Below, piece by piece: positions 5,651 to 19,817 of a stretch of 64,000 nucleotides of DNA. The notes below the pieces were generated by a model. It ran no database searches and had not been told where the DNA came from. It worked only from the letters and a program-made list of their open reading frames with translations. The stretch lies in sequence record MH791411.1. The stretch is one strand, 5' to 3'. Position numbers and translations under genes: made by a program. The stretch's first letter is position 1. Each line of letters opens with the position of its first letter. The DNA comes from Escherichia phage Ecwhy_1.

Positions 5651-5678
5651 GGGAGACATAAGTCTCCCTTTTCTTTTA
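5651..5678. terminator. bidirectional rho-independent terminator between convergent genes
   Basis: Perfect hairpin gggagac-ataa-gtctccc (5651-5668) flanked by aaaaaa upstream and ttttctttt downstream; lies between the plus-strand fibre gene (ends 5643) and minus-strand thyA (ends 5676). Confidence 0.7.
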
Positions 5679-6605
5679 TACAGCCATTGGTGCTTTGATT
5701 GTTGGCATTGGATCGTAATTAACTAATTTGAAAGAATCCATAGTGAAATCTTCAATATCAGTAATAGTAGGATCTAGCCATAATTCTGGTAATGTACGTG
5801 GTTCACGTTGGAGTTGCTCTTTTACTTGTTCAATATGGTTTTGATAGATATGGCAGTCGCCACCATTCCAAATAAATTCACCAACATCTAACCCTGTAAT
5901 TTGTGCAATCATATGAGTTAGTAGTGAGTAACTACTAATATTAAATGGCACACCAAGGAATAGATCAGCACTACGTTGATGAAGAATACAACTTAGTTTA
6001 CCCTGTACAACACAAAACTGCACAAAGCTATGACAGGGTGGCAAAGTCATAGCATCAAGCTCACCAACGTTCCATGCACTTAGAATGTGACGACGACCGT
6101 ATGGATCAGTATTGATACCTTCAATAACTTGTTTTAGCTGGTCAGTTACACGACGCATAATAACACCATGTGAACCAGTATAATCAATAACTTTATACCC
6201 TTTATCTTTTAGTTCTTGAATTTCTTCAGTACTGGAACTGAATTTATAATCTTCCCATTCACGCCATTGTTTACCATAAACTGGGCCAAGCTCACCATCA
6301 GAATACCCAAGGCTTACACCTTGATTAAGGTAGTTGTCTGTCCAAATTGTTTTCTTTTCTACATCACGTGTCCCGTGTAAAATTTCACACAGACGACGCT
6401 CATCGTGAGAACCTTCAATAAACCATAACAATTCTGAAGTCATTGCTTTCCAAGCCAAACGTTTAGTAGTTACTGCTGGGAAACCTTCTTTTAGGTCAAA
6501 ACGCATTTGTTGTCCGATTAGCTTGATAGTGCCAACACCAGTACGATCAACGCTTTCGACACCTTGATCCAGAATTCTTTGATATAGTTCTTGTAGTTGT
6601 TTCAT
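5676..6605 (-). CDS. thyA: thymidylate synthase (ThyA/Td)
   Basis: Canonical ThyA motifs: RTGVGT, GFPAVTTKRLAWK, GPVYGKQWR, ILSAWN, LPPCH catalytic Cys, LGVPFNISSY. Uninterrupted ORF, no intron. Confidence 0.9.
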   Translation of the reverse strand: MKQLQELYQRILDQGVESVDRTGVGTIKLIGQQMRFDLKEGFPAVTTKRLAWKAMTSELLWFIEGSHDERRLCEILHGTRDVEKKTIWTDNYLNQGVSLGYSDGELGPVYGKQWREWEDYKFSSSTEEIQELKDKGYKVIDYTGSHGVIMRRVTDQLKQVIEGINTDPYGRRHILSAWNVGELDAMTLPPCHSFVQFCVVQGKLSCILHQRSADLFLGVPFNISSYSLLTHMIAQITGLDVGEFIWNGGDCHIYQNHIEQVKEQLQREPRTLPELWLDPTITDIEDFTMDSFKLVNYDPMPTIKAPMAV

Positions 6606-7198
6606 TTTACGTCCTTGAAAAATGTAATAAAGTGTTCCATGTGTTTTTGTGTAGCATTACGTGAACCAATCCCAGTCCAATTACCGTGTGGTGCTGGTAT
6701 TGAGAATGTTTCAGTAAACTCTTTCAGTACTGTATCATAATAAAATACAGAGCGAGTGTTCATATCATAACAATATATTTCTGGATTGTCAACTGAATCC
6801 ATATACATCTGTACGGCCCATGCAGTTCCACCTGAAACTTGCGTAGGTGATGTAATATTTGCAATACAATATACTCTTTTTGTATTAAGTATCTGGTAAC
6901 TATTCCTTGCAAGTAAGTTATATACATACGAACCAGGCTTAGGAACTTTACGGCGTAAAGAGTAACATGCAATGTTTAATTGTTTTAATATTGAACTATC
7001 ACAAAGGATATTGGGTGGAATTTCTAATATAGTATTTTCATCTACGCTGCTTTGGTGACCCTTGAATGAAAAATTTATTACTTCAAATCCATTGTCTTTT
7101 GCATAGATAGAAAAAAGGCGGTCAGCACCTGCTGCCCCGCCACTGAAACATACATTAGATAAACCATTGATTGCTTCATCTAATTCTATTTTATTCAT
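6602..7198 (-). CDS. hypothetical protein with Rossmann-like glycine motif (SLOG/DprA-like?)
   Basis: 198 aa; motif FSGGAAGADRLFSIYA resembles the Gly-rich loop of SLOG/DprA-type folds; stop overlaps the thyA start (ATGA). Family assignment tentative. Confidence 0.5.
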   Translation of the reverse strand: MNKIELDEAINGLSNVCFSGGAAGADRLFSIYAKDNGFEVINFSFKGHQSSVDENTILEIPPNILCDSSILKQLNIACYSLRRKVPKPGSYVYNLLARNSYQILNTKRVYCIANITSPTQVSGGTAWAVQMYMDSVDNPEIYCYDMNTRSVFYYDTVLKEFTETFSIPAPHGNWTGIGSRNATQKHMEHFITFFKDVK

Positions 7199-7203
7199 TT
7201 ATA

Positions 7204-7857
7204 TTATTTTGCTTTACGTTCAGCAAATGCCTGTTTAACTTTCTCAATTGCTTTGGTTTGTGAAATTCCTTCTGGGATTTCAATATAGAAAGTTTTGCTA
7301 TCAGGTGCTACAGGTGTTGCTTGAACTTGTGGACGTAGAGATGGTTCTAAGTTGTAAGCACGTTCAAAGTGCTCTTTAGCCAACTGCTCATAACGTTGTG
7401 CATCTTTAAGTAGTTGCTCAACAATGGTAGCTTCTTCAACAGAAGTATCGACTTCTTGTGGCTTGAATGGGTTGTATTCTTTAACTTTACCATCTTCATG
7501 TTTTTTAGCATCATTATCATTGATTGCGTTGTTTAGAACATCAAGAGAAATCTTACTGTTTCCACCAACATGCATATCAATATCACAAGTACGTGCACGA
7601 CGCAAATGTTGTAGATTATGAAGAACATCTAGCATTTTGCGACCGTCTAGATGACCAATCTTATGCATAACTTCCCACAAATCTACATTCGATTGACCTT
7701 GATTCATTACTAAATCTGCAACAGATTGAGCATATGCTTCAGGAAGTGAGTCGCGATAAACAATGAGACAATGTTCTGGATCATCAGGGAGTGAACGCCA
7801 TACCACAAATACTCGTGAACCCGTATTACGTACTACACCAACGTGACGAATAGCCAT
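7204..7857 (-). CDS. hypothetical protein
   Basis: 217-aa ORF with ATG start, in a tight minus-strand array. Confidence 0.5.
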   Translation of the reverse strand: MAIRHVGVVRNTGSRVFVVWRSLPDDPEHCLIVYRDSLPEAYAQSVADLVMNQGQSNVDLWEVMHKIGHLDGRKMLDVLHNLQHLRRARTCDIDMHVGGNSKISLDVLNNAINDNDAKKHEDGKVKEYNPFKPQEVDTSVEEATIVEQLLKDAQRYEQLAKEHFERAYNLEPSLRPQVQATPVAPDSKTFYIEIPEGISQTKAIEKVKQAFAERKAK

Positions 7858-7859
7858 TA

Positions 7860-8090
7860 TTATTCTCCTTTATTTTGTTCAGCAGCAGCTTGTGCAGCAT
7901 CAGCTTCTTCTTGTGCTTTGATATCTTCGAGTGCAGAGTTAGCAAACTCAACAAACTTAGATACGACTGGAGCAACATCAACAAGTTCTTCGACTTTAAA
8001 TGAATTACGAGCCACAGCAGCTTCCATGATTTTAGCAGCGTTGATTAGGTCGATTAGGGTTAGTTGAATTTTTTCTGGTTCTTGTTCCAT
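7860..8090 (-). CDS. hypothetical small acidic protein
   Basis: Track ORF 7860..8189; the ATG at 8090 (MEQEPEK) has a GGAGAG RBS, the upstream starts do not. Confidence 0.45.
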   Translation of the reverse strand: MEQEPEKIQLTLIDLINAAKIMEAAVARNSFKVEELVDVAPVVSKFVEFANSALEDIKAQEEADAAQAAAEQNKGE

Positions 8091-8199
8091 TTTAATACTC
8101 TCCATGTATGTTGTTACAAATATAATTATATCACCTTTTTCCAAGCTGTCCCGCTGAAAAAAGTAGAGAACGGAATTTTCCGTTCTCATTATTTAGTAC

Positions 8200-9609
8200 T
8201 TAGCTACGTTGACGCTTTTTGTCAGCTTCATATTCGTAGTGTACAGTTTCGCCAAATGGTGCTTGTTTGTTAGGATTACTGTGGATAACAAACAGTGTCT
8301 TACAGTAATCAGGATCACCCCATGACTGCCACGGCTCACCATCTGTAAACATAATAAGCTGTTTAGGCTTATAGTTGTCATGCTTCATATGAACCCATAC
8401 TGCTTCAAAGTCAGTACCACCACCACCTTTCACTGGATATTCGAGAATCTTACTCTCTTCACCAGTTTTGTAATCTTTCACAGTATAAACTTCAGTATCG
8501 AACGTCATGATACGGATTTTAAATTGTTTAAACTGCTTAGTGATACCCAGTACTTCACTGATGAAATCACGGAGCATATCTTCAGAGATAGAACCGGATG
8601 CATCTAGTGCAATTGCAATATCAATATCATCATCTGGTTTCATACCAGGGAAGATTGGATTCCCGTAGAATGAACCAGAACTACCAAAACCAGCACCCCA
8701 TGAACGACGATTAGGATTTTGATAAGTTGCATCAGACTTCAACCAGCTACGCAGTGTGCGGTGAAGTTTGGAACGCCAGTCAATCTTAGGTTCTTTGAAG
8801 TTGTTAATCATACGTGCGATTTCAGCAGGAGTACCACCTGCACGAGCAGCATTCATCATTGCTGTTTTGAAATCATCCATATAATCACGTTTTTGTTTAT
8901 CACTTGAACCACCTTCTTGACCTTCTTGTGGAACGTCATGCTGGTCGATTGTTGTACCTTTGCCTTTACCATCTTTGATATCACCAAAAGTACCGCGTGA
9001 TTTACCTTCACCCTCACCACTACCAGCCTGTGGATTTCCTTCACCTTCTCCGTCTTGATCCTGCTTATCTTCTTCTTCGAGAATGTTATAAATCTCTTCA
9101 GCAGTCATACCATCGTACTTTTTATCGTACAGCCATTGGCTTTGGATTTTACCAATTTTATCACGAACAAGAATCTGGTTAATTGCATAGTCAGCAGCAC
9201 GGTTATAACGCTGCGGGTCACGCATACCACGACGCAAGAAGTGGTCATATGCACAGTGAAGAATCTCATGACAGATAACTGCAATCAGGTTTTCATCGGT
9301 CAAACCTTCTGTCATTTCTTTAAGTTGTTCTTCAGTTACTTCAGGATGTTTCTCACGAATTGCTTCTTCGTATGCTGACTTTTTGGATTGGTCCTGAATA
9401 CCCATGATGAATTCTACGTTGTAGAATAAATGCTTACCATCTACAGCCAAAGTACGACACCATGTGTTGTTTGCAACTGGACGCAGACGAGAAGCCAGTA
9501 CACCAAAGAATGGGAATGTTAGCATTAAAGATGTGCGAGCTAAGATCAGACGATCTTGACATTCTTTCTGGAGAGCCGGAGTAACATCACTGAAACGTTT
9601 ATCTGACAT
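8200..9609 (-). CDS. VWA-domain protein with N-terminal HExxH metallopeptidase-like motif (CobT/DUF2201-like partner of MoxR ATPases)
   Basis: 469 aa; HEILHCAYDH in the N-terminal half; VWA MIDAS-like motif DIAIALDASGSIS in the C-terminal half; Gly/Glu-rich linker; GAGGA RBS. Confidence 0.7.
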   Translation of the reverse strand: MSDKRFSDVTPALQKECQDRLILARTSLMLTFPFFGVLASRLRPVANNTWCRTLAVDGKHLFYNVEFIMGIQDQSKKSAYEEAIREKHPEVTEEQLKEMTEGLTDENLIAVICHEILHCAYDHFLRRGMRDPQRYNRAADYAINQILVRDKIGKIQSQWLYDKKYDGMTAEEIYNILEEEDKQDQDGEGEGNPQAGSGEGEGKSRGTFGDIKDGKGKGTTIDQHDVPQEGQEGGSSDKQKRDYMDDFKTAMMNAARAGGTPAEIARMINNFKEPKIDWRSKLHRTLRSWLKSDATYQNPNRRSWGAGFGSSGSFYGNPIFPGMKPDDDIDIAIALDASGSISEDMLRDFISEVLGITKQFKQFKIRIMTFDTEVYTVKDYKTGEESKILEYPVKGGGGTDFEAVWVHMKHDNYKPKQLIMFTDGEPWQSWGDPDYCKTLFVIHSNPNKQAPFGETVHYEYEADKKRQRS

Positions 9610-9629
9610 TTGTATTTCCTCGTTTAGTT

Positions 9630-9660
9630 AAGATAAAAGAAGGATACCATGTGGTATCCT
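9630..9660 (-). terminator. intergenic hairpin with U-run (partial terminator/attenuator between ATPase and VWA genes)
   Basis: Palindrome aggatacc-atgt-ggtatcct (9641-9660); on the minus strand it is followed by tcttttatct. Confidence 0.45.
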
Positions 9661-9684
9661 CCTTGTCAACACTCTTTTTAATTA

Positions 9685-11013
9685 TTAACCAAGAGAGCGT
9701 GCTTTACGTACTAGGTCAGAGTACTTCATAACGAAGTCTTTAAACGCTGGTACATCTTTAATCGTAATCGCTACTTTATGAAGCGTGATGGTACGAATCG
9801 CCAGTACTGCCAGTTCTGCTTGAGTTGCAGAGAAGTTATGGTCTAGGAAGGTGATGAAGTTGTTGCACAGCTTACCCCAATCTTCCACTGGTAGACGTTG
9901 TTCTTGCTTCTCATTGTAGAGGTCGATAATTTTGTAAACCAGATTCAGAGTGATGAAGTAGTTCGCGGAAATATCAAGCGAAGCATCAATCTCTTTAATC
10001 TCACCCTGTAGGATGGACATGGTATCTGGTAGTTTAGCTACGTTATCAACATACTCGATGTATTCAGTTGCTACGCCTTCACCAACACGACCTGCAATCA
10101 TCGCACGGAACACTTCTTTATCAATGTTCTTAACTTTCTTCAGATCTTCGTAGCGTGCTACTGCTTCCCATGAACGTGGAGAAGTACCACCACAGTGAGA
10201 AGGATCTTGTGGGCTAAGGGTGTTGAAGTGTTTAGCACCAGTGTTGTTGATGAACGCTACAGTTGCTGGGTTCAAACGCTTACCAATCGCATAATCGTTA
10301 ATCCAATCTTGATGATAAGGAATCATTTCGATGTGGGTCATACGGTCACGCAGTGGTGTAGCTAGAGAGAACGTTACACCGCCATCAGTTTCACGGTTAC
10401 CTGCTGCGAGAATCAGTGCAGTCTTAGGTAGCTTCATCTCACCAACACAACGGTCGAGGATTAGCTGATAAGACGCTGCCTGTACAATCGGCATTGCAGA
10501 GTTGATTTCGTCAAACAGAATAACACCTTTCCAATCTGGAGACAGTTTCAGTACTTTAGGTGCTGCCCACACAACTGCTGTTTCAGCGATGTAATCTTGT
10601 GCACTAGCCAGTTCAGATTCAATCAGTTGCTTACCATCCATATCAAGGAACACTTTCTCTGGAACTGGGATACCGCGAAGGTCACTTGGTTCAATCTGAG
10701 ACAAACGGAAATCGATAAAGTTAGTGTCTTGGTCGATTAGTTTGGCTTCAAACGCTGCCAGTTCACGGCGAAGTTGATCAGCATTTTCAGTATCAGCTTC
10801 GATTTGTTGTTTCATGAACTCAATTTTTGCCACGTTATCTTTACGCAGTGGGTAGTTCTCATCAGCGTATTGACGTGCGATAGCAGATTTACCGATACCA
10901 GGGCTACCCCAAATCATCAGGCTATCTTGAATCATGTCAGCCAGTGCCATTGCTTCTTTAGCTTTCTTAGGAGTCAGTTTTACGTTCAGGATATCGTTGT
11001 TTTGAGTAGACAT
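9685..11013 (-). CDS. MoxR/CobS-like AAA+ ATPase
   Basis: 442 aa; Walker A GSPGIGKS, Walker B ILFDEIN, and overall MoxR/CobS-like arrangement; AAGGAAA RBS. Confidence 0.8.
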   Translation of the reverse strand: MSTQNNDILNVKLTPKKAKEAMALADMIQDSLMIWGSPGIGKSAIARQYADENYPLRKDNVAKIEFMKQQIEADTENADQLRRELAAFEAKLIDQDTNFIDFRLSQIEPSDLRGIPVPEKVFLDMDGKQLIESELASAQDYIAETAVVWAAPKVLKLSPDWKGVILFDEINSAMPIVQAASYQLILDRCVGEMKLPKTALILAAGNRETDGGVTFSLATPLRDRMTHIEMIPYHQDWINDYAIGKRLNPATVAFINNTGAKHFNTLSPQDPSHCGGTSPRSWEAVARYEDLKKVKNIDKEVFRAMIAGRVGEGVATEYIEYVDNVAKLPDTMSILQGEIKEIDASLDISANYFITLNLVYKIIDLYNEKQEQRLPVEDWGKLCNNFITFLDHNFSATQAELAVLAIRTITLHKVAITIKDVPAFKDFVMKYSDLVRKARSLG

Positions 11014-11079
11014 GTATATTTTCCTTTTGTTGGATAAAATCGTTTAGGTTTCTATTATAGCCAATCCGTGGGCAAAAGT

Positions 11080-11122
11080 AAAGGAACTGTGTTAAAAGAA
11101 TTTTTAACTTATCAGTTCCTTT
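11080..11122 (-). promoter_or_regulatory. 10-bp-stem hairpin in the 5' leader of the ATPase gene
   Basis: Inverted repeat aaaggaactg (11080-11089) / cagttccttt (11113-11122), 23-nt loop, between the promoters and the ATG at 11013. Confidence 0.5.
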
Positions 11123-11179
11123 GTTACTTCATGAATCATCCGTGTATTTAAAAAGGCATTTCTCTTTGCCGTCTTGATG

Positions 11180-11212
11180 TGGTCATTATATCACATCGTT
11201 CAGGCTTGTCAA
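11180..11212 (-). promoter_or_regulatory. sigma70-type promoter P1 (consensus -35/-10, extended -10, A-rich UP-like tract)
   Basis: Minus strand reads TTGACA (plus 11207-11212), 16-nt spacer, TGaTATAAT (plus 11185-11193); A-rich tract upstream of -35. Confidence 0.55.
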
Positions 11213-11271
11213 CAACTTTTTTATTTCTTTTTCAATCTCACATCTTGTGATTTTGAAAACTTGCTTCGTGG

Positions 11272-11304
11272 TGGTCATTATAACACATCATTCGGCGTTG
11301 TCAA
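11272..11304 (-). promoter_or_regulatory. sigma70-type promoter P2 (tandem copy of P1)
   Basis: Minus strand reads TTGACA (plus 11299-11304), 16-nt spacer, TGtTATAAT (plus 11277-11285); part of a ~60-bp direct repeat with P1. Confidence 0.55.
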
Positions 11305-11329
11305 CATCTTTTTTTCTTTATTTTCGAAG

Positions 11330-11707
11330 CTACATGTGCATCGAAAATAACATTCTAAAATCATCACCACACAATGTTAACTCTGTAACTATCATTGCGT
11401 CCGAGAGGTATATGTACTGCCCTTCTACATAGTAGGGTGAAGTACATATCCTATCAAGCGATGTAAAGATTATAGAACTTTTGAACTCTCTTTGCAAGGG
11501 GATTTTTGTAAATTCGTAAAGAATGTTTTCTTTACAAATTGTATATCCAAACTTGCTAAGTCTTAAACCACCGCCAGTTCTGAAATTTTCAAAAATTGAC
11601 ATCAGAAGCATACGGTCTGTTAATTCAGCGTCTGATCCATGTACTTCTCTAACTTTTAAAAGTACATCGTTTTGAAATTCAGTACTGTTGTGTGGTTCAG
11701 GAATCAT
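11330..11707 (-). CDS. hypothetical protein
   Basis: 125-aa ORF ending just upstream of the tandem promoters. Confidence 0.45.
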   Translation of the reverse strand: MIPEPHNSTEFQNDVLLKVREVHGSDAELTDRMLLMSIFENFRTGGGLRLSKFGYTICKENILYEFTKIPLQREFKSSIIFTSLDRICTSPYYVEGQYIYLSDAMIVTELTLCGDDFRMLFSMHM

Positions 11708-11710
11708 AAA

Positions 11711-12103
11711 TTACATCCCCACGAAACCCTGTCTTGCTGCATATGAAGGAGCATCTTTAACTTTATAGTCTTGGACACCATCTTTACCAATTTTCGGACC
11801 CATATCTTTGGTTCCGAAGCAGCAATCAGTGGATTCATCAACTTCTTCAGTACTTTCATCATTATATCGAACATCCGATAAAATGTCACACGCTTTTTGA
11901 AGCTTTTCTACGATTTCTTTTTGATCTTCACCTGATTTAACCTTATCCACAATGTGGATAAGGCATTCGGTGATATCTTTAAGTAAATCGGTGGCAACAG
12001 CATCAGAAGGAGTCTCAACTGCAAAACTTTCTTCTTCAGTAGATTCTTCACTAGAAGTGATTTCATCTAATGCTTCAACCAATTCACGATAATTATATCC
12101 CAT
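11711..12103 (-). CDS. hypothetical acidic protein
   Basis: 130 aa, Glu/Asp-rich; ATG at 12103 abuts the stop of the upstream gene. Confidence 0.5.
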   Translation of the reverse strand: MGYNYRELVEALDEITSSEESTEEESFAVETPSDAVATDLLKDITECLIHIVDKVKSGEDQKEIVEKLQKACDILSDVRYNDESTEEVDESTDCCFGTKDMGPKIGKDGVQDYKVKDAPSYAARQGFVGM

Positions 12104-12104
12104 C

Positions 12105-13097
12105 TTATTTGTCCCCTAGAAATTGTTGATATTTCTTCTGGAGACTTTCGAAAATGTCTTCGACTTCTTCATCGCTTTCATCTTCTAGTTCTTCGTTACC
12201 TTCCACTGACTCATCACTCTCATTAACATTGAGTGGGTTGTCACCTAGAGCAGTACCTGGAAACTTAGGTTCAAATTTGTGAACACGGTTCTCGTTACCG
12301 TCATTGTCATAGTACTCTGGTTCAGGACGATTGTCAACATCTTCATCAACGACACGTCTCCAGTAGAACTTGTTACCCTTGGTAATAACAACAAAGTGGT
12401 CACCTTCTACACCATTAGTTTTAGCTTGACCGTCACGAACAGCATCAGCTTCAGTGTTGTAAGGACCAAAATCAGTACTGTCACCTTGTTCTTCATCTTC
12501 AGAGATGGTTAGGTCTGGTAGGAAAGTGTTTTCTTCAACTTTAACTTCAGTATCTGGGTTACCTTCTACTGAATATTCATCTTCTGGTTCGTCTTGAAGA
12601 CCAGCTAGAGATAGCATACGACTGAAATCGAATTCTTCTTCGATGATTTCTTCTTCTTCTTCCTCTTCTTCAACTGATTCTAGTTGAGGTTGACCGGAAA
12701 GATCTAAAGAAAACTCTTCTTCATCTGCAACACCAGGCTCTTCGAACTCTGCATCCATACTTACTTCTTCAGAATCACCACCAAAATCACCAGCTTCAGC
12801 AGATAGTGAGTCAGCAGCTACTTCCAATGGGTCTTCAACTGGTGCATCAATCGCACCATCCATTGTACCACCAACTTCTTCTTCAGCACCCGCACCAATG
12901 GAATCCATGTCGAGTGGAGCGATTGGTGGTAGAGAAGGGGTCATAGACCCCATAGAAGGAACTGGAGCAGCAACAGGAGAAGCTTGACGCTCTGCTTGAC
13001 CAGCTAATGCAAGCATACGAGATAGTGTTTCTAGATCTTCAGATTCTAGACCTGCGATATCGATTTTAACTTGTGCTTCATTAATTTTTTTAGCCAT
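12105..13097 (-). CDS. highly acidic low-complexity protein (poly-Glu tract; repeated SRML[AS]LAG motif)
   Basis: 330 aa; run EEEEEEEEIIEEE; motif LSRMLALAGQ and FSRMLSLAGLQ occur twice; AAGGA RBS and ATG. Confidence 0.6.
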   Translation of the reverse strand: MAKKINEAQVKIDIAGLESEDLETLSRMLALAGQAERQASPVAAPVPSMGSMTPSLPPIAPLDMDSIGAGAEEEVGGTMDGAIDAPVEDPLEVAADSLSAEAGDFGGDSEEVSMDAEFEEPGVADEEEFSLDLSGQPQLESVEEEEEEEEIIEEEFDFSRMLSLAGLQDEPEDEYSVEGNPDTEVKVEENTFLPDLTISEDEEQGDSTDFGPYNTEADAVRDGQAKTNGVEGDHFVVITKGNKFYWRRVVDEDVDNRPEPEYYDNDGNENRVHKFEPKFPGTALGDNPLNVNESDESVEGNEELEDESDEEVEDIFESLQKKYQQFLGDK

Positions 13098-13119
13098 TTT
13101 AAATAAATCCTTTTAGTTA

Positions 13120-14631
13120 TCAATCATTCTTATTTAATGATTTTAAAATTTGCACTGTTTCATCCTTTTTACCAGATAGTAAAATGTCAGCAGCAATTAG
13201 AGAAACCTCATCACCACGCGTTAAGAGTACTGTAATTTTCTTAGCGTAAGGTGATTCTTTAATTCGTGAAGCCAATGATTGAACTTCATCACCAGGAGCA
13301 GGAACTTCAGGTTCTGGCTCTGATACAGGTTCTGGTTCTTTAGTAGGTTCAGCTTTTGGTTCAACTACATCAGTACTTGATACTTCAGCATCTACTTTCT
13401 CTTCAGGTTCTTCTTCTTTCTTATCAGCATGTTCTGCATCATAACGAGCAAGAATGTCATCAGCAGTTGATTTTGGAATCAATTTACCTTCTGCACTGAT
13501 AAAGCGGTTACCACCGATATAAGAATACTCTGTGCCTTTCTTAGATTTTACTTTAGTTCCGATTTTCATTGCACCAGAACTGTTATGGCGAATTATATCA
13601 CGTTGAGCAGCACGTTCAACACTTTTTGCAGCACTAGAATTTAGTTGTTTTTTAGTTTCTACATCAAACCATGCATTTTTTTGTTTAATGTATGTTTTAC
13701 CTTTATTTGAAGTAATGCGGTAACCATGTGGAACCACAACAGATTCAGTTTCTTCAATCTCTTCATCTGCTTCATTAATGGATTCTTTTGTTGCGAATAC
13801 TGGCTGTTTTACTGGTTGTTTAGGTTGTTCTGGCTTTTCACCTGAACCAAAACGTTGTTCACCTGATTCATGATCACCAGTTAGTGAAGGAAAATCACCA
13901 GGGTTAGCCTTAACAAATTGCTGATATGCATTAAAGATTACATGTGCATTTTGTTCTGGAATTACAACATTACCATCATTATCACAAAATTCTTTACCAT
14001 TCCATTCTGAACGAGTATTACCTTGTACTAATGTAGATTTAATTGGAATTAGTTTGTTTTTTGGTGCTAATTGGCGAGCAATACGCATACCTTCATCGGA
14101 AAGTTTACGTGTCATTGCTGGGTCAACTGGACGTCCAGATTTTGCATCAACAAAACGGTGATTTTTAGGGATGAATTTAAATCCACTAACTTCCATACCT
14201 GCTGGAATAGAAATATCATCAGCATATGGTGGAAGGATATAGAATTTTAGGGAGTTCCATTCTTTTTGTAGAGTTTCTTTTGAAACATTATATACACGGT
14301 GGTCATCTGCCATTAGTTCAGTGATAATTTCACTTTCAGTTAGTAGAATTCCATCTTTAGAATTGAAACGATTTTCACCAAGAAATGTACACTCTTTACC
14401 TTCAAGAATATATTTTTTACCAATTTTATATTCACTAGAAGATAGATTGTGCTCAACAATCTGTTGTCGAGCACTTGCGTACATGGATGGGTATTTTTTA
14501 GGGTCTACCATTAACATATTATTGTCGTTAAACCAGAAACCTTCTAGAAATACATATTTGCCACCAGTGTGAGAAGTATATACATATCCATTAGGTACTG
14601 TGGTAGTTTCAGTACTGAAAAAATTATCCAT
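13120..14631 (-). CDS. hypothetical protein with four internal small-domain repeats
   Basis: Track ORF 13120..14673; the ATG at 14631 (MDNFFSTE) has an AAGGAG RBS. Four related segments (GGKYVFLEGFWF, KIGKKYILEGKECTFLGENRF, GKTYIKQKNAWF, KKGTEYSYIGGNRF). Confidence 0.55.
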   Translation of the reverse strand: MDNFFSTETTTVPNGYVYTSHTGGKYVFLEGFWFNDNNMLMVDPKKYPSMYASARQQIVEHNLSSSEYKIGKKYILEGKECTFLGENRFNSKDGILLTESEIITELMADDHRVYNVSKETLQKEWNSLKFYILPPYADDISIPAGMEVSGFKFIPKNHRFVDAKSGRPVDPAMTRKLSDEGMRIARQLAPKNKLIPIKSTLVQGNTRSEWNGKEFCDNDGNVVIPEQNAHVIFNAYQQFVKANPGDFPSLTGDHESGEQRFGSGEKPEQPKQPVKQPVFATKESINEADEEIEETESVVVPHGYRITSNKGKTYIKQKNAWFDVETKKQLNSSAAKSVERAAQRDIIRHNSSGAMKIGTKVKSKKGTEYSYIGGNRFISAEGKLIPKSTADDILARYDAEHADKKEEEPEEKVDAEVSSTDVVEPKAEPTKEPEPVSEPEPEVPAPGDEVQSLASRIKESPYAKKITVLLTRGDEVSLIAADILLSGKKDETVQILKSLNKND

Positions 14632-14644
14632 GTGTTGATTCTCC

Positions 14645-15190
14645 TTAAGAAAGCATACGCAAAAGTTGTTCACGCTGCTCTGGACTTAATTTTTGTAGAG
14701 CATCAGGGATACTAGAACCTTGTGCTTTTGGCTGTTCCTGTGGTGCTGGTTGTGGAGCATTGTCAGGTTGAGCTTGTGGTGCAGGACGTTGTTGTTCTTC
14801 ACCTTTATCATCATCACGATAATCATTCATCAAGTCACGTGCTGCTGCCAATAGAGCAGAACCAACATCTTTAGGAGTAAAAGTACGACGACTGTTATTT
14901 CCCAGGTGTTTTATATCAAGGTTATTTCCTTTGAAGAATTGTGCAACATCAGCATATGGTACTGATGGCTGTGCTTTACCGTATTTGCGACCAACATAGC
15001 GTTTAAATTCAGCCCAAAGACGGTTTGCTTCTGCACCAACTTCTTGTGCACCTTGTTCTACTTGACCACTACCGAAAAAGCCTTTTACTTTTCCTTTTGC
15101 ACTATCTACTGCACTTTGTGAACGACTATATGGACGAGCTTCATTTAGCTCTTCATCATTATAGTCTAACATTTCATTAAGTATACTCAT
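14645..15190 (-). CDS. hypothetical protein (Gln/Pro-rich, C-terminal LLRMLS motif)
   Basis: 181-aa ORF; C-terminus EQREQLLRMLS resembles the SRMLxLAG motif of the neighbouring acidic protein. Confidence 0.5.
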   Translation of the reverse strand: MSILNEMLDYNDEELNEARPYSRSQSAVDSAKGKVKGFFGSGQVEQGAQEVGAEANRLWAEFKRYVGRKYGKAQPSVPYADVAQFFKGNNLDIKHLGNNSRRTFTPKDVGSALLAAARDLMNDYRDDDKGEEQQRPAPQAQPDNAPQPAPQEQPKAQGSSIPDALQKLSPEQREQLLRMLS

Positions 15191-15193
15191 GTC

Positions 15194-15727
15194 TCAATCC
15201 TTTTTACCAAAACCAGCACTCATATATTGAGAGTATTTATTGTCACTTTTAACTGCTTCAATCGCATCTTTAACTGCGGTTACAGCACGTTCTTCACCAG
15301 CTAAATCATGGCTGTCTTCTGGTTTGCCAAAATCAACACCAATTACTGGTTCGTAATCGTCAAAGTCAATATCATCTTCGAGTTCGGTCATTTCTTGTTG
15401 ACGTGGTTCATCTTTACTACGTACACGGATTAGAGCTTCAGTCATACTTAGTAGGTTGCCAATTTCATACATTAGTACGTTTGATTGAACACCACGGTGG
15501 CATTTGAAATCAAACATCCAAATTTCACCACAATCTAATTCATAAAAATCTAGTGGTCTTTCCATGAAAATAGTTTTCTTTAGTGCACCAATATCAAATG
15601 CATCATAACGATCCATTAGGCGTTGTGATACTTTACTTAGTTGCTCATTGGTAGGTTCAACTGCAAACTTGACTCGGTATTCAAAAACTGGTTTTTTATC
15701 CGTTAGGATTTGTTGTAATCTATTCAT
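15194..15727 (-). CDS. hypothetical protein
   Basis: 177-aa ORF, acidic C-terminal half. Confidence 0.5.
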   Translation of the reverse strand: MNRLQQILTDKKPVFEYRVKFAVEPTNEQLSKVSQRLMDRYDAFDIGALKKTIFMERPLDFYELDCGEIWMFDFKCHRGVQSNVLMYEIGNLLSMTEALIRVRSKDEPRQQEMTELEDDIDFDDYEPVIGVDFGKPEDSHDLAGEERAVTAVKDAIEAVKSDNKYSQYMSAGFGKKD

Positions 15728-15754
15728 TTTAATAACTCCATAAGGTCGTTTAAG

Positions 15755-16771
<1,017 letters not shown>

Positions 16772-17866
16772 TTAAAAATCTCCTAATATGTTACCTAATC
16801 CGAATTTTGAGCTTGCAGAAGAAACGATGCTTCCTAAACCAATAGCATTTGCACCTCTTGTCACTGCGGAACCTATGTTTCGGATGGTATCAGGAGTAAT
16901 GTCACCACGAAGGATATCACCAGCACTACTGATTATATCACTAACTGATGTTCCTGCTCGGATAATTTTACCAACTGTCGAAATTCCTTTAGTTTTGTCA
17001 TCAAGTTCACCAAAGTACTTAAAGAATCCACTCACACCAAGACCTTCAGTATCGGTGATGAGTTGTGCAATTTCCATTGTAGGGACACCAATACTCAAGT
17101 ACCCTTCAGGACCAAAGTTGTTACACGCTTCATAACGCATAGTCAAAGATAATAGTGCTGGGTCACCTTCACTTTCCATAGATTTAGTTTCTAATTGTAT
17201 ATCTTCGATGAATACATTTATCATGTTATGAACTGTATAGGTTTCATTATCAATTTCATAGATATTAATTGATTTGAAAAAGTACTGGTTGTCGTAGTTA
17301 CCATTGTTCATTACAGAACGACCCCAGTTTCCACCTAAACCATTGAAATTTTCGGGTGTACTGAGTACGTCATTTCGGTAAGATTGTGGGTTCTTGTCAA
17401 AGAAGTCACCATAGTAGAACTTACGATATGCGTCCATTAGGAGATATCCAGCACCATCAACAGTATCGTAGAAGACAACATTACTTGGTTTATAAACAAT
17501 ATCACCAGTAACTAAACGTTTTTTGTTGTATTGGTTTACGGTTTCAACACTAAAAGAAAAACTAGGAAGTGTTACATCTTTTACAAAGCACGATACATTA
17601 TTAACATCAAAATCAGTATGTGTATCTGGGAGTTGGGTTTTAATAAAGTTCTTTGCGAACGGGGTTAGTACAAATTCGATAATAAAACTGTTCTTAAATT
17701 TTGGTAAATTATAGAATGAAAAACCCATTTCACCTGCTGTACCAAACACACGTTGTGCAGCGTTATAATTCTCAAAAGCTGGTTCTCTAATGATGTTGAT
17801 ATTGTCAATAACACCATTAACTATACTAGTTCCAGTACTGACAAATGAATCAAAAAAATCACTCAT
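16772..17866 (-). CDS. tail-tube-fold protein with C-terminal extension (possible tube initiator/baseplate-proximal)
   Basis: 364 aa; segments PKFKNSFIIEFVL and VKDVTLPSFSFSVETVNQYNKKRLVTGDIVYKPSNVVFYD parallel the PKAKYKFRV and RDSVGNASAKAL regions of the two upstream tube genes. Confidence 0.5.
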   Translation of the reverse strand: MSDFFDSFVSTGTSIVNGVIDNINIIREPAFENYNAAQRVFGTAGEMGFSFYNLPKFKNSFIIEFVLTPFAKNFIKTQLPDTHTDFDVNNVSCFVKDVTLPSFSFSVETVNQYNKKRLVTGDIVYKPSNVVFYDTVDGAGYLLMDAYRKFYYGDFFDKNPQSYRNDVLSTPENFNGLGGNWGRSVMNNGNYDNQYFFKSINIYEIDNETYTVHNMINVFIEDIQLETKSMESEGDPALLSLTMRYEACNNFGPEGYLSIGVPTMEIAQLITDTEGLGVSGFFKYFGELDDKTKGISTVGKIIRAGTSVSDIISSAGDILRGDITPDTIRNIGSAVTRGANAIGLGSIVSSASSKFGLGNILGDF

Positions 17867-17877
17867 GGGTTATCTCC

Positions 17878-18654: not shown

Positions 18655-18697
18655 AGCAACCTCTTTTATTTTATAAGGTATTATACTTTATTTAGCA

Positions 18698-18725
18698 TAA
18701 AAAAAGCCCCGAACTAGTTCGAGGC
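18698..18725 (-). terminator. rho-independent terminator between the two tube genes
   Basis: Stem gccccgaact/agttcgaggc (18706-18725, one mismatch); on the minus strand followed by a run of 7-8 U. Confidence 0.7.
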
Positions 18726-18743
18726 TTACGTTTAAAAGAAAAA

Positions 18744-19430: not shown

Positions 19431-19486
19431 TTATATTCTCCTGTTATGGAATGACATCTTTATATTATTTATCTATTACTTACACT

Positions 19487-19733
19487 TTTATTGAAGTATC
19501 TCATCAACAGGAAACCAATCTATATTCACACAATACAAGTACTTTTTTTCTTGTTTATGATCTGTATAGTTTACACCAACCGACCATTTACCATTTGTGT
19601 AAACATTGTATTCTCGAATTATACCGACAATGTTCCAAATTTTGTATAAAAGCTTTAAGGATTTTTACGGCATCGTCCTGTGTTGCTACAGTTTTACTTA
19701 CATCTTGTAATGTTTTTTTAAGTATTTCTTCCA
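19487..19733 (-). pseudogene. small ORF with apparent frame break between sheath and tube genes
   Basis: ATG at 19733 with AGGA RBS; this frame stops at 19587-19589, and a second frame stays open to 19487 with protein-like sequence (YNVYTNGKWSVGVNYTDHK). Could be a frameshifted gene, a programmed shift or a sequence error. Confidence 0.3.
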
Positions 19734-19781
19734 TATTATTCCTGATCGTTGAATTAATAACATAACGTATTTAATTTTAAA

Positions 19782-19810
19782 CAATAAAAAAGGGAACCAA
19801 AAGGTTCCCT
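19782..19810 (-). terminator. rho-independent terminator after the sheath gene
   Basis: Hairpin agggaacc-aaaa-ggttccct (19791-19810); on the minus strand followed by ttttttatt. Confidence 0.7.
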
Positions 19811-19817
19811 TAGTGTT

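What the first reader, a model, noticed from the sequence alone, without database searches (positions are those of the whole stretch)
8200..11304. Strongly promoted MoxR/CobS-like ATPase plus VWA-HExxH partner, with tandem consensus promoters and a leader hairpin
Two near-identical ~60-bp direct repeats each carry a textbook sigma70 promoter on the minus strand (TTGACA, 16-nt spacer, TG-extended TATAAT, A-rich upstream tract). They are followed by a 10-bp-stem hairpin in the leader and then the AAA+ ATPase (9685..11013) and a VWA protein with an HExxH motif (8200..9609), with a hairpin plus U-run between the two genes. ATPase/VWA pairs are chaperone-like remodelling machines; two stacked consensus promoters imply very high early expression, and the hairpins suggest attenuation-type control. 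The substrate of such pairs in phages is not established.
Basis: partly seen in the sequence, partly recalled or inferred. Interest (0 to 1): 0.6.

Follow-up and report, generated by a model that had tools for sequence, protein, structure and literature searches.

The report
Phage MoxR ATPase/VWA-peptidase operon with attenuated leader
A jumbo coliphage carries an already-described chaperone-like ATPase and VWA-peptidase gene pair; what is not described is its control region, where two perfect host-type promoters fire into a conserved leader holding a terminator and a small GGA-loop hairpin.

Summary
The window is an Asteriusvirus-type jumbo phage, 99.9% identical to Escherichia phages EC.P1 and fEgEco12.

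**Genes.** ORF 9685-11013(-) is a MoxR-class AAA+ ATPase; its best structural matches are NorQ and CbbQ. ORF 8200-9609(-) is a DUF2201_N/DUF2201 protein with an invariant HExxH motif and an intact VWA MIDAS site. The pair corresponds to N4 gp24/gp25. Iyer et al. 2021 already described it for these jumbo phages, so the genes are not new and their client is still unknown.

**Promoters.** Two 12/12 extended -10 sigma70 promoters are the only perfect ones in 64 kb. They are lineage-specific: RaK2 has one, and other genera use a different promoter class.

**Leader.** It is followed by a second small hairpin with a conserved A(C/U)GGA(U) loop. The order promoter, T1, GGA hairpin, gene is kept in the five named genera compared, plus unclassified relatives, and both stems covary. 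A second terminator between the two genes is also universal.

"Very high early expression" therefore does not follow. Expression depends on read-through of T1. I found no alternative structure, leader peptide or Rfam family. The mechanism, whether partial termination, factor-dependent antitermination or binding of a protein such as CsrA, is untested.

The parts
11277..11304 (-). P1, distal sigma70 promoter: TTGACA, 16-nt spacer, TGT, TATAAT. An A-rich UP-like tract lies at about 11305-11325. Predicted start about 11270.
   Evidence: 12/12 with TG extension; zero-mismatch hit. 121Q has TTGACA-16-TACAAT at the same place.
11185..11212 (-). P2, proximal sigma70 promoter: TTGACA, 16-nt spacer, TGA, TATAAT. 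An A-rich tract lies upstream. Predicted start about 11178.
   Evidence: 12/12 with TG extension; also 12/12 in 121Q. Its TGATATAAT is identical to the -10 of the phage's GGGACA-class promoters.
11179..11325 (-). Two 55-nt direct repeats (11179-11233 and 11271-11325), 92 nt apart, each carrying one promoter. A 14-nt inverted repeat lies between them at 11229-11259.
   Evidence: the repeat finder D1, 82% identity, and I3. The P1-P2 region is only 75.6% identical to 121Q, yet the hexamers are kept.
11014..11178 (-). Leader from the P2 start to the ATG. It is more conserved than the coding sequences.
   Evidence: 93.4% identity to 121Q, against 89.8% for the ATPase CDS and 85.1% for the VWA CDS. 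Fold z = -3.1. No Rfam family matches.
11136..11147 (-). 5' GGA box, AUACACGGAUGA. An (A/U)AyGGA motif lies 9-20 nt upstream of T1 in 15 of 16 relatives.
   Evidence: It matches RUACARGGAUGU at 10/12, but matches of that quality occur at chance frequency in the window. L026 lacks the GGA.
11070..11122 (-). T1, leader intrinsic terminator. Stem AAAGGAACUG/CAGUUCCUUU with an inner 7-bp stem, then UUUACUUUUG.
   Evidence: -15.4 kcal/mol. Annotated as an ARNOLD terminator in phage G17. Five stem pairs covary across 16 relatives and the top of the stem, ACUG/CAGU, is invariant.
11060..11073 (-). hp2, small hairpin GCCCA-CGGA-UUGGC with a conserved A(C/U)GGA(U) loop. Its GGA lies a fixed 21-23 nt after the CAG that begins the 3' arm of T1.
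   Evidence: The arms covary (GCUUAU/AUAAGC, CAAAU/AUUUG, UCAGAU/AUCUGA, CUCAA/UUGAG) while GGA is invariant. Three of 5 pairs change on both sides. The hairpin is weak in the window itself, -3.2 kcal/mol.
11054..11082 (-). P3, promoter-like TTTACT-17-TATAAT. It overlaps the T1 U-tract and hp2, 40 nt before the ATG.
   Evidence: 10/12. Present in the window and 121Q, weaker in RaK2 (TATCAT), absent in the Munch and GAP32 groups.
9685..11013 (-). MoxR-class AAA+ ATPase, 442 aa, N4 gp24-like. It carries lineage-specific insertions at about aa 53-95 and 120-146.
   Evidence: phrog_1297 at 3e-105. Walker A (G36, G39, K42, S43) and Walker B (D168, E169) are invariant, as is the AAGNR motif, which I read as sensor-1. 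Distant homologues carry AAA_5 and AAA_3. The model has pLDDT 85 and its top PDB matches are NorQ and CbbQ2.
9628..9669 (-). T2, inter-gene hairpin (12 pairs) plus a U-rich tail. A promoter-like TTGACA-17-TGGTATCCT overlaps it.
   Evidence: -17.5 kcal/mol. A hairpin with a U-run is present between the two genes in all 11 relatives, with unrelated stem sequences. Annotated as a terminator in phage Munch.
8200..9609 (-). VWA partner, 469 aa, N4 gp25-like. It has an N-terminal zincin-like domain (HEILHCAYDH), a low-complexity Gly/Glu/Asp/Gln-rich linker, and a C-terminal VWA domain with a complete MIDAS site.
   Evidence: Pfam DUF2201_N at 3e-36 and DUF2201 at 1e-21. Invariant residues are H114, E115, H118, H123, D336, S338, S340, T399 and D423. 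Fold matches to integrin I domains and MDN1 MIDAS.
8157..8187 (-). T3, operon-end terminator: GAGAACGGAAAAUUCCGUUCUC followed by UACUUUUUU.
   Evidence: -14.2 kcal/mol. Annotated as a terminator in G17 and Munch. Present in the ten enterobacterial relatives with different stems; none is seen in Vibrio phage 2.275.O.
8125..8152 (-). Promoter of the next transcription unit, GGGACA-N13-TGATATAAT class. It marks the canonical order of terminator then promoter.
   Evidence: four copies in the window. The equivalent TGAAACG-TGGTATAAT promoter sits at the same place in GAP32, CBB and BF.

Best explanation
This is a transcription unit driven by host RNA polymerase and punctuated by three terminators. 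It encodes a non-virion MoxR-type AAA+ machine.

**Transcription.**
- Two tandem consensus sigma70 promoters (P1, P2) start transcripts that first meet a conserved leader. The second promoter is a duplication specific to the Asteriusvirus lineage.
- The leader contains a 5' GGA box, an intrinsic terminator (T1) and a small hairpin (hp2) with an A(C/U)GGA(U) loop.
- A large share of transcripts should stop at T1, giving RNAs of about 105 and 197 nt. Only read-through RNA, which carries hp2, reaches the ATPase gene.
- Promoter strength and T1 together set expression. T1 read-through is the likely control point, through intrinsic leakiness or through a protein factor rather than an alternative RNA fold.
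- A second conserved terminator (T2) lowers transcription of the VWA gene relative to the ATPase gene. That would fit a hexameric ATPase working with fewer adaptor molecules.
- T3 ends the unit.

**Proteins.** By analogy with NorQ-NorD, CbbQ-CbbO and RavA-ViaA, the AAA+ ring engages the VWA/MIDAS domain of the partner. The partner's invariant HExxH domain then binds or cleaves a client.

**Timing and role.** The promoters are of the host-sigma70 or 'middle' class rather than the late class. The protein is absent from the CBB virion proteome. In N4-like phages the pair lies in the replication module. I therefore infer an intracellular, pre-late role, remodelling or processing a phage or host protein complex, rather than a structural one.

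**Shown:** the sequence elements, their conservation and covariation, and the fold classes.

**Inferred:** promoter activity, termination efficiency, stoichiometry, timing and the client.
For: **Promoters**
- Both are perfect and unique in the window. They are conserved in 121Q although the surrounding DNA is only 75.6% identical.

**Leader**
- It is more conserved (93.4%) than either coding sequence.
- The order promoter, T1, hp2, gene is found in Asteriusvirus, Alcyoneusvirus, Munch-like phages, Mimasvirus, Eneladusvirus and uncultured relatives. The junction downstream of the VWA gene has the ordinary order, terminator then promoter, in the same genomes.
- Covariation: 87% of cells are paired, against 21-48% when partners are slid. 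Eight of 16 pairs change on both sides. The covariation score is 0.316 against 0.108 in shuffles, reached by 0 of 500 shuffles.
- Covariation in hp2, which lies downstream of T1, indicates that read-through RNA is under selection.
- T1 stability matches T3.

**T2**
- It is present in all relatives with non-homologous stems.

**Proteins**
- The AAA+ motifs are invariant. NorQ (including NorQ-NorD VWA complexes) and CbbQ2 are the best structural matches.
- HExxH and MIDAS are invariant and the VWA fold is confirmed.

**Timing and location**
- In CBB the TGAAACG promoter class that drives this operon is the class associated with DNA-synthesis genes; late genes use ATAAATA (PMC5259590).
- CBB_216 and CBB_217 are absent from the CBB virion proteome list.
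- In N4-like LUZ7 the pair sits directly upstream of the helicase, DNA polymerase and dCMP deaminase genes.
- In this window it borders DprA-like and ThyA genes.
Against: - No transcript data exist for any phage of this group in the library searched. Start sites, termination and timing are all predictions.
- T1 has a long loop, and the simple terminator scan did not call it.
- P3 and the promoter-like site over T2 could bypass the terminators in this lineage.
- The ATPase was detected in phAPEC6 virion preparations (6 peptides), although thymidylate synthase was detected too.
- The operon lies directly downstream of tail and virion genes, which fits the published assembly proposal.
- The covariation alignment was built by me from anchored arms of these same sequences, with the loop replaced by N. 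That favours the structure somewhat.
Confidence: 0.5

Rival explanations
1. Virion-assembly chaperone and protease, the published prediction. The MoxR-VWA pair assists tail or head assembly and the HExxH domain processes structural proteins. The strong promoters simply supply large amounts of it.
For: - Proposed for exactly these group 2.2 jumbo phages, by analogy with the Acidianus two-tailed virus tail (PMC7824862).
- The operon lies immediately downstream of tail sheath, tail tube and virion protein genes on the same strand.
- The ATPase was detected in phAPEC6 virion mass spectrometry: gp265c, 6 peptides, 19% coverage.
Against: - The promoter class is host sigma70 or 'divergent RpoD-like', not the ATAAATA late class used by structural genes in CBB and GAP32.
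- Neither protein appears in the CBB virion proteome list.
- The phAPEC6 list also contains thymidylate synthase, which suggests carry-over of abundant proteins.
- In N4-like phages the pair is in the replication module, far from structural genes.
Confidence: 0.25
2. The tandem promoters mainly make a small non-coding RNA, about 105 nt from P2 and about 55 nt in GAP32-type phages, that ends at T1. ATPase expression would be a by-product of read-through or would come from P3.
For: - A strong promoter followed within 45-100 nt by a stable hairpin and a U-tract is the anatomy of an sRNA gene.
- The initial transcribed region (AUUAAGAcA box) and the 5' GGA box are conserved across genera.
- The related phage PA5oct has abundantly transcribed ncRNAs (PMC7318152).
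Against: - hp2 lies beyond T1 and shows compensatory changes, so RNA that reads through T1 is itself under selection.
- In the Munch and GAP32 groups no promoter-like sequence lies between T1 and the ATPase gene, so read-through must express the genes.
- There is no Rfam match.
Confidence: 0.15
3. T1 is simply the terminator of the upstream late structural operon. The real ATPase promoter is P3, and P1 and P2 are incidental or serve another purpose.
For: - T1 is the first terminator after the upstream gene cluster.
- P3, TTTACT-17-TATAAT at 10/12, lies just after T1 and is conserved in 121Q.
Against: - P3 is absent or degenerate outside the Asteriusvirus and RaK2 lineages.
- The promoter upstream of T1 is present in every relative, its -35 often overlapping the upstream stop codon.
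- The T1 stem sequence is conserved far more than T2 or T3, which are replaced by unrelated hairpins. That is not expected of a generic terminator.
Confidence: 0.12
4. The leader is a target of a host or phage RNA-binding protein, with CsrA as the specific candidate. A dimer would bridge the 5' GGA box and the GGA loop of hp2, plus the AAGGA Shine-Dalgarno in this lineage, to control translation, stability or read-through.
For: - GGA in a short hairpin loop is the preferred CsrA site; the SELEX consensus is RUACARGGAUGU (PMC4347634).
- hp2 keeps GGA invariant while its stem covaries.
- The two GGA motifs are 48-57 nt apart in the single-promoter relatives and 67-74 nt apart in the window, 121Q and RaK2.
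- The same phage has a perfect 12/12 CsrA consensus in a 7-bp hairpin, plus a second site on the Shine-Dalgarno, upstream of its PhoH-like gene.
Against: - GGA-loop hairpins and 10/12 consensus matches occur at chance frequency in the window.
- GGA is not significantly enriched in most leaders: 39 observed against 22.6 expected in total, p > 0.2 in most.
- One relative (L026) lacks the 5' GGA.
- hp2 is weak in the window itself.
- No binding data exist.
Confidence: 0.1

Closest known systems
MoxR AAA+ ATPase / VWA-metallopeptidase pair of 'group 2.2' jumbo phages (Iyer, Anantharaman, Krishnan, Burroughs, Aravind 2021, PMC7824862); phage N4 gp24/gp25 (PMC2784036)
   Same: It is the same gene pair. 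The RaK2 orthologues are annotated as N4 gp24-like and gp25-like. Homologues of the VWA protein occur in 724 phage records, including N4-like, rV5-like and PA5oct-like phages. The domain architecture is identical: AAA+, and zincin-like HExxH plus VWA.
   Different: Nothing differs at the protein level apart from lineage-specific insertions in the ATPase. The published work does not describe the promoters, the leader terminator or the GGA hairpin, and its functional proposal (virion assembly) is untested.
Cellular MoxR-VWA systems: NorQ-NorD, CbbQ-CbbO, RavA-ViaA
   Same: NorQ and CbbQ2 are the closest solved folds to the ATPase. In both kinds of system a VWA protein with a MIDAS site is encoded next to the ATPase. 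RavA outnumbers ViaA, about 350 to 90 molecules per cell (PMC3893208 abstract), in line with the terminator between the two genes here.
   Different: Sequence similarity is very low: 10-14% identity, TM 0.54-0.62 on the target, no Pfam AAA_3 or AAA_5 hit above threshold. The phage partner carries an N-terminal HExxH domain that Iyer et al. contrast with the ATV MoxR-vWA system, which lacks it; from my own knowledge NorD, CbbO and ViaA lack it too. No metalloenzyme client is evident.
Promoter-proximal terminators controlled by antitermination (lambda pR'-tR' 6S RNA with Q; own knowledge, not tested here)
   Same: A strong constitutive sigma70 promoter is followed within 100-200 nt by an intrinsic terminator that must be read through to express the downstream genes.
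   Different: I identified no Q-like protein, Q-binding element or promoter-proximal pause signal. No nut- or put-like structure was found, and no alternative antiterminator fold exists.
CsrA/RsmA binding sites (GGA in hairpin loops; SELEX consensus RUACARGGAUGU, PMC4347634)
   Same: hp2 presents an invariant GGA in the loop of a covarying stem. A second GGA box lies upstream, and the Shine-Dalgarno is AAGGA in this lineage.
   Different: The match to the full consensus is only 10/12 at the 5' box and is not better than chance. There is no evidence of binding.

Membership tests
MoxR-class AAA+ ATPase (Pfam AAA_3 PF07726 / AAA_5 PF07728) | Walker A GxxGxGK[ST] and Walker B hhhhDE | tested here: met
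   GSPGIGKS and VILFDE. G36, G39, K42, S43, D168 and E169 are invariant in 31 homologues.
MoxR-class AAA+ ATPase (Pfam AAA_3 PF07726 / AAA_5 PF07728) | Profile match above the curated Pfam threshold | tested here: not met
   AAA_3 scores 17.9 bits against a cut-off of 27, and there is no AAA_5 hit; only the generic AAA model passes, at 21.5 against 21.2. Homologues at about 32% identity do carry PF07728 and PF07726, so the link is transitive.
MoxR-class AAA+ ATPase (Pfam AAA_3 PF07726 / AAA_5 PF07728) | Fold closest to solved MoxR members | tested here: met
   The top Foldseek PDB hits are NorQ (9qh9, 9qh8, 9qh4, 9qhd; E 5e-7 to 1e-6; TM on target 0.54-0.62) and CbbQ2 (6l1q). The model has pLDDT 85.4. 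Other AAA+ clades follow closely, so discrimination is modest.
MoxR-class AAA+ ATPase (Pfam AAA_3 PF07726 / AAA_5 PF07728) | Adjacent gene for a VWA/MIDAS partner | tested here: met
   The VWA gene starts 75 nt downstream. This synteny is kept in the jumbo-phage relatives, and loosely in PA5oct-like and N4-like phages.
MoxR-class AAA+ ATPase (Pfam AAA_3 PF07726 / AAA_5 PF07728) | Hexameric ring with ATP-dependent remodelling activity | not testable with these tools
   Requires biochemistry or cryo-EM.
CobS/CobT-type cobaltochelatase pair | Specific similarity to CobS (ATPase) and CobT (VWA partner) | tested here: not met
   No CobS or CobT family appears in Pfam, NCBIfam or PHROGs hits, and none among the top 50 PDB fold matches.
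DUF2201_N + DUF2201 (PF13203 + PF09967) 'predicted metal-dependent peptidase with VWA-like domain' | Both Pfam domains above the gathering threshold | tested here: met
   125.8 bits (cut-off 23.2) and 77.8 bits (cut-off 26.4). All 120 listed homologues carry DUF2201_N, and all but one truncated sequence also carry DUF2201.
DUF2201_N + DUF2201 (PF13203 + PF09967) 'predicted metal-dependent peptidase with VWA-like domain' | HExxH zinc-binding motif conserved | tested here: met
   H114, E115, H118 and H123 are invariant in 22 sequences down to 42% identity. Peptidase activity is untested.
DUF2201_N + DUF2201 (PF13203 + PF09967) 'predicted metal-dependent peptidase with VWA-like domain' | VWA fold with a complete MIDAS site (DxSxS...T...D) | tested here: met
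   D336, S338, S340, T399 and D423 are invariant. Fold matches to integrin I domains and MDN1 MIDAS at E about 2e-5. The model is only moderate in this domain (pLDDT 55-88).
HNH endonuclease (label carried by many database records and PHROG 1314) | HNH nuclease domain | tested here: not met
   No HNH family appears in Pfam. The label seems to be propagated annotation.
Sigma70 promoter | -35 TTGACA, 16-18 nt spacer, -10 TATAAT, optional TG extension and an A/T-rich UP element | tested here: met
   12/12, 16-nt spacer, TG extension and A-rich upstream tract for both P1 and P2.
Sigma70 promoter | Transcription initiation in vivo at the predicted sites | not testable with these tools
   I found no transcriptome for Asteriusvirus or its close relatives.
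Intrinsic terminator / leader attenuator | Stable hairpin followed directly by a U-tract, downstream of a promoter and upstream of the regulated gene | tested here: met
   T1 is -15.4 kcal/mol and is followed by UUUACUUUUG. It is called an ARNOLD terminator in G17 and covaries in 16 relatives. The simple scan missed it because the loop exceeds 8 nt.
Intrinsic terminator / leader attenuator | Mutually exclusive antiterminator structure, leader peptide or riboswitch aptamer | tested here: not met
   Truncated leaders leave the 5' arm of T1 unpaired, at -0.3 to -3 kcal/mol in single-promoter relatives. No conserved leader ORF exists: Munch, L016 and Yen9-04 lack an AUG. There is no Rfam hit.
CsrA-regulated leader | Two or more GGA motifs, at least one in a hairpin loop, one near or over the Shine-Dalgarno | tested here: inconclusive
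   The hp2 GGA loop is invariant and a 5' GGA box is present in 15 of 16 relatives. A Shine-Dalgarno GGA occurs only in some lineages. Motif frequency is not above chance.

The most novel reading that the evidence does not exclude
The conserved leader (5' GGA box, T1, GGA-loop hairpin) may be a riboregulatory switch read by a trans-acting protein. The candidate is either host CsrA or a phage antiterminator or RNA-binding protein.

Under this reading the strong constitutive promoters are held in check early in infection. The ATPase/VWA-peptidase would be released only at a defined stage or host physiological state. The abundant T1-terminated short RNA could also act as a decoy or sRNA.

This would be a new phage timing device that links a MoxR machine to host post-transcriptional control.
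Probability: 0.12. Interest if true: 0.7.

Novelty: new member of a known kind. Interest (0 to 1): 0.35.

Why it matters
The MoxR/VWA-peptidase pair is among the most widespread genes of unknown function in large virulent phages of Gram-negative bacteria. Homologues of the VWA protein occur in 724 phage records, covering N4-like, rV5-like and Rak2-like phages, and some of the jumbo relatives were isolated as candidate therapeutic agents.

Two points sharpen where to look for its client. Its promoters are of the host-sigma70 or 'middle' class, not the late class. It also sits behind a conserved attenuating leader. Both point to pre-late, intracellular events rather than to virion assembly as currently predicted.

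The leader also gives concrete experimental handles: T1, hp2 and the two promoter copies.

For annotation, the common labels 'HNH endonuclease', 'anti-sigma factor' and 'T4 gp25-like' on this protein are wrong.

Tried and rejected
- **Rfam:** a scan of 7800-11800 at E up to 10 gave only chance hits.
- **PDB by sequence:** single-sequence and profile searches gave only P-loop matches for the ATPase and nothing useful for the VWA protein.
- **NCBIfam:** no meaningful hit.
- **PADLOC defence models:** no hit for either protein, so nothing suggests a defence-type system.
- **Leader-peptide attenuation:** short ORFs exist in some leaders but are not conserved.
- **Alternative antiterminator fold:** none found.
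- **P3-box motif elsewhere in the window:** unique, so it is not a promoter class.
- **'U-tract plus AyGGA' arrangement elsewhere in the window:** the only intergenic hits are the two in this leader, at 11154 and 11077.
- **CsrA consensus statistics:** 2-mismatch matches are at chance, 29 against 21.8. GGA-loop hairpins are common, 78 and 91 per strand. GGA enrichment in the leaders is weak.
- **Functional and temporal data for homologues:**
  - The PA5oct paper has no held supplements.
  - A search of the CRISPRi-ART supplements for the SUSP1 homologue found nothing relevant.
  - No transcriptome exists for Asteriusvirus.
- **First promoter search:** it used a wrong 17-nt spacer and missed both sites. 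Corrected.
- **MAFFT alignment of natural leader sequences (A1):** it misregistered the 5' arm of T1. I replaced it with an anchored gapless construct, A2.

Full report
**Source of the window.** The region 8100-11400 is 99.9% identical to Escherichia phages EC.P1 and fEgEco12, and 86-87% identical to 121Q, PBECO4, G17 and phAPEC6. The window is therefore an Asteriusvirus-type jumbo myovirus of the Rak2-like group. PHROG hits place the finding between two gene blocks. One holds tail sheath, tail tube and virion protein genes (11711-22481, minus strand). The other holds an unknown gene, a DprA-like gene and thymidylate synthase (5676-7857).

**Check of the observation.** All elements exist where stated.
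- The two ORFs are 9685-11013(-) and 8200-9609(-).
- Two TTGACA-16-TG.TATAAT promoters lie at 11304-11277 and 11212-11185. Each scores 12/12 with a TG extension. They are the only perfect matches in 64 kb.
- The promoters lie in 55-nt direct repeats of 82% identity, 92 nt apart.
- The 10-bp leader stem is perfect (I5).
- The inter-gene hairpin has 12 pairs and a U-rich tail.
- My first promoter pattern had a one-base spacer error and missed both sites. One search is the corrected search.

**The proteins.**

*The ATPase*
- It gives only weak Pfam hits: AAA at 21.5 bits, AAA_3 at 17.9 bits (below threshold), and no AAA_5. It matches phrog_1297 'ATPase' at 3e-105.
- In an alignment of 31 homologues the Walker A and Walker B motifs are invariant, as is AAGNR, which I read as the sensor-1 motif. 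The jumbo-phage form has two insertions, at about aa 53-95 and 120-146.
- Homologues at about 32% identity carry AAA_5 and AAA_3.
- An AlphaFold model (pLDDT 85.4) finds as best solved relatives NorQ, including NorQ-NorD VWA complexes, and CbbQ2. Both are MoxR-class ATPases. 'MoxR-like' is thus supported at fold level. 'CobS-like' is not specifically supported.

*The partner*
- It matches DUF2201_N (3e-36) and DUF2201 (1e-21).
- HExxH plus a downstream histidine (H114, E115, H118, H123) are invariant. So is a complete MIDAS site (D336, S338, S340, T399, D423).
- The C-terminal domain has the integrin I / MDN1 MIDAS fold.

*Other checks*
- Neither protein matches defence-system models or any solved structure by sequence.

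**What is already known.**
- The RaK2 record calls these proteins N4 gp24-like and gp25-like. The N4 pair was listed with unknown function in 2009 (PMC2784036).
- Iyer et al. [quoted passage not shown] They propose a role in virion assembly (PMC7824862).
- Homologues of the VWA protein occur in 724 phage records: N4-like, rV5-like, PA5oct-like, Campylobacter phages and others.
- I found no experimental work on function.

**The regulatory region compared across relatives.** I compared the intergenic regions of 11 GenBank relatives and 18 IMG/VR loci.

The same layout is present throughout the enterobacterial Rak2-like phages, in this order:
1. a promoter directly after, and often overlapping, the stop codon of the upstream small gene;
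2. a short transcribed stretch with an (A/U)AyGGA box;
3. a hairpin with a U-tract (T1);
4. at a fixed distance, with GGA 21-23 nt after the CAG of T1's 3' arm, a second small hairpin (hp2) whose loop is A(C/U)GGA(U);
5. the Shine-Dalgarno sequence and the ATPase gene;
6. a hairpin with a U-run (T2);
7. the VWA gene;
8. a terminator (T3);
9. the next promoter.

The promoter class differs by lineage.
- GAP32, CBB, BF, Yen9-04 and Kaldavass have TGAAAC(G/A)-N14-TGGTATAAT. This is the 'divergent RpoD-like' class that the CBB paper links to DNA-synthesis genes, distinct from the ATAAATA late motif (PMC5259590).
- Munch-like phages have GGGACA...TGATATAAT.
- RaK2 has one consensus promoter.
- Only the window lineage and the 121Q lineage have two.

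The tandem textbook promoters are thus a recent upgrade of an older single promoter, not a property of the module.

**Evidence that the leader RNA structures are selected.** The natural-sequence MAFFT alignment misregistered one arm. I therefore built an anchored, gapless construct from the real arm sequences of 16 relatives, with the variable T1 loop replaced by NNNN. On this alignment:
- 87.1% of cells form standard pairs, against 21-48% when partners are slid by 1-3 columns.
- Eight of 16 pairs change on both sides: 5 in T1 and 3 in hp2.
- The covariation score is 0.316 against 0.108 in shuffles, reached by 0 of 500 shuffles.

The caveat is that I derived the structure from these same sequences.

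Three further observations point to function.
- The leader from the P2 start to the ATG is 93.4% identical between the window and 121Q. That exceeds the ATPase CDS (89.8%) and the VWA CDS (85.1%). The promoter region is 75.6% identical, with the hexamers preserved.
- The top of the T1 stem (ACUG/CAGU) is invariant in all lineages. T2 and T3 are replaced by unrelated hairpins.
- hp2 lies beyond T1. Its compensatory changes indicate that RNA reading through T1 is under selection.

**What kind of control this is.**
- T1 (-15.4 kcal/mol, then UUUACUUUUG) is as stable as the operon-end terminator T3 (-14.2) and close to T2 (-17.5). The G17 record annotates it as a terminator. Many transcripts from P1 and P2 should therefore end there.
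- I looked for the classical attenuation devices and found none:
  - no stable alternative pairing of the T1 5' arm in truncated leaders;
  - no conserved leader ORF;
  - no Rfam family.
- Read-through is thus either constitutive and partial or depends on a protein factor.
- In the window lineage, two weaker promoter-like sites overlap the terminators. P3 is TTTACT-17-TATAAT at 11082-11054. The other is TTGACA-17-TGGTATCCT at 9669-9641. They could add terminator-independent expression, but they are missing in the other genera.
- T2 is universal and should lower VWA transcripts relative to ATPase transcripts. This fits a hexamer with fewer adaptor molecules; RavA outnumbers ViaA about 350 to 90 (PMC3893208 abstract).

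**The GGA motifs.** GGA in a hairpin loop is the preferred site of CsrA/RsmA; the consensus is RUACARGGAUGU (PMC4347634).
- The 5' box in the window, AUACACGGAUGA, matches at 10/12. Matches of that quality occur at chance frequency, 29 against 21.8 expected.
- GGA-loop hairpins are common in the window.
- GGA is only weakly enriched in the leaders.
- The argument for a protein-binding role therefore rests on conservation alone. I rate it as a minority reading.
- In passing, I found a perfect 12/12 CsrA consensus inside a 7-bp hairpin, with a second site on the Shine-Dalgarno, upstream of the PhoH-like gene at 60533-61972.

**When and where the proteins act.**

*Against a purely structural or late role*
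- The promoter class is not the late class.
- CBB_216 and CBB_217 are absent from the CBB virion proteome list, which jumps from CBB_214 to CBB_224.
- In N4-like LUZ7 the pair lies directly upstream of the helicase, DNA polymerase and dCMP deaminase genes.
- In this window it adjoins DprA-like and ThyA genes.

*For an assembly role*
- The position is next to tail genes.
- The ATPase was detected in phAPEC6 virion preparations. Thymidylate synthase was detected there too, which suggests carry-over.

I therefore favour a pre-late intracellular role, at moderate confidence only. The assembly model stays the main rival for protein function.

**Verdict.**
- The gene pair is known and its function is still open.
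- The tandem consensus promoters are genuine by sequence but specific to one lineage.
- The added value is the conserved leader: T1 plus the GGA-loop hairpin, in the unusual order of promoter before terminator. I did not find it described. It makes expression of this widespread phage module experimentally tractable.
- It is an ordinary kind of element, a leader terminator, without a demonstrated mechanism. Interest is moderate to low.

Noticed in passing
window 8125-8152, 27136-27163, 39294-39321, 60497-60524 (all minus strand): A recurring promoter-like motif, GGGACA-N13-TGATATAAT, occurs four times in intergenic positions on the gene strand. It occupies the same positions as the TGAAACG-TGGTATAAT 'divergent RpoD-like' promoters of GAP32, CBB and BF, so it is probably the Asteriusvirus and Munch version of that class. 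P2 differs from it only by GG to TT in the -35.
   Followed up: partly
window 61976-62008 (minus), upstream of ORF 60533-61972: A perfect 12/12 match to the CsrA SELEX consensus (GUACAAGGAUGU) lies inside a 7-bp hairpin, GAGUACA-AGGA-UGUACUC. A second ACUCAAGGAUGU overlaps the Shine-Dalgarno of a PhoH-like gene (phrog_2765). By my own arithmetic a perfect match is expected about 0.03 times by chance in 128 kb. I did not check it in relatives.
   Followed up: partly
window 9641-9669 and 11054-11082 (minus): Two promoter-like sites (10/12 each) overlap the terminators T2 and T1: TTGACA-17-TGGTATCCT and TTTACT-17-TATAAT. They are conserved in 121Q and partly in RaK2, and absent in the Munch and GAP32 groups. 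They might re-initiate transcription after each terminator in this lineage.
   Followed up: partly
L009 3402-3570 (Vibrio phage 2.275.O, upstream of its ATPase): A distant relative (ATPase 47% identical) has its own perfect 34-nt direct repeat, 135 nt apart. Each copy contains TGTTATAAC, an extended -10-like sequence. The copies flank a hairpin with 23-nt arms followed by UUGCUUUUACGG. This may be an independent case of tandem promoters plus a leader terminator.
   Followed up: partly
window 8200-9609 and database records of its homologues: The VWA/HExxH protein is widely mislabelled as 'HNH endonuclease' (also the PHROG 1314 label), 'anti-sigma factor', 'Zn-dependent hydrolase (T4-gp25-like)' or 'Sll7028 protein'. 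It has no HNH domain. fEgEco12 annotates 'transcriptional regulator HdfR' over the promoter region.
   Followed up: yes
window 11330-11707 (minus): A small conserved gene of unknown function (125 aa, phrog_15638, no Pfam hit) always lies immediately upstream of the operon. In GAP32-type phages its TGA stop codon is part of the TGAAAC -35 element of the ATPase promoter. Its CBB orthologue CBB_215 is not in the CBB virion proteome list.
   Followed up: no
window 7860-8189 (minus): The mechanical ORF start at 8189 lies inside terminator T3. The real start is probably the ATG at 8090-8088, as in 121Q gene 565. It is preceded by a Shine-Dalgarno presented in a small hairpin, AUACAUGGAG(A/U)GUAU, conserved in the ten enterobacterial relatives but absent from Vibrio phage 2.275.O.
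   Followed up: partly
window 11229-11259 (minus), between P1 and P2: A 14-nt inverted repeat, UUUUCAAAAUCACA/UGUGAGAUUGAAAA, lies in the P1 transcript just upstream of the A-tract of P2. It is partly kept in 121Q, with no compensatory changes seen. A third degenerate copy of the GATGTGA spacer motif lies within it.
   Followed up: no
window 11148-11157 and RaK2 L003 leader: Upstream of the 5' GGA box there is a small hairpin plus U-run: GGCA...UGCC-UUUUU in the window and CAUCAU...AUGAUG-UACCUUUU in RaK2. The unit 'hairpin, U-tract, AyGGA' may thus be duplicated within the long leaders of this lineage. It is not conserved in 121Q.
   Followed up: no
PMC7247149 Table (phAPEC6 virion mass spectrometry): The orthologous ATPase (gp265c, 49.5 kDa) was detected in purified phAPEC6 particles with 6 peptides, together with thymidylate synthase (gp259c). 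This means either real packaging or carry-over of abundant non-structural proteins.
   Followed up: partly
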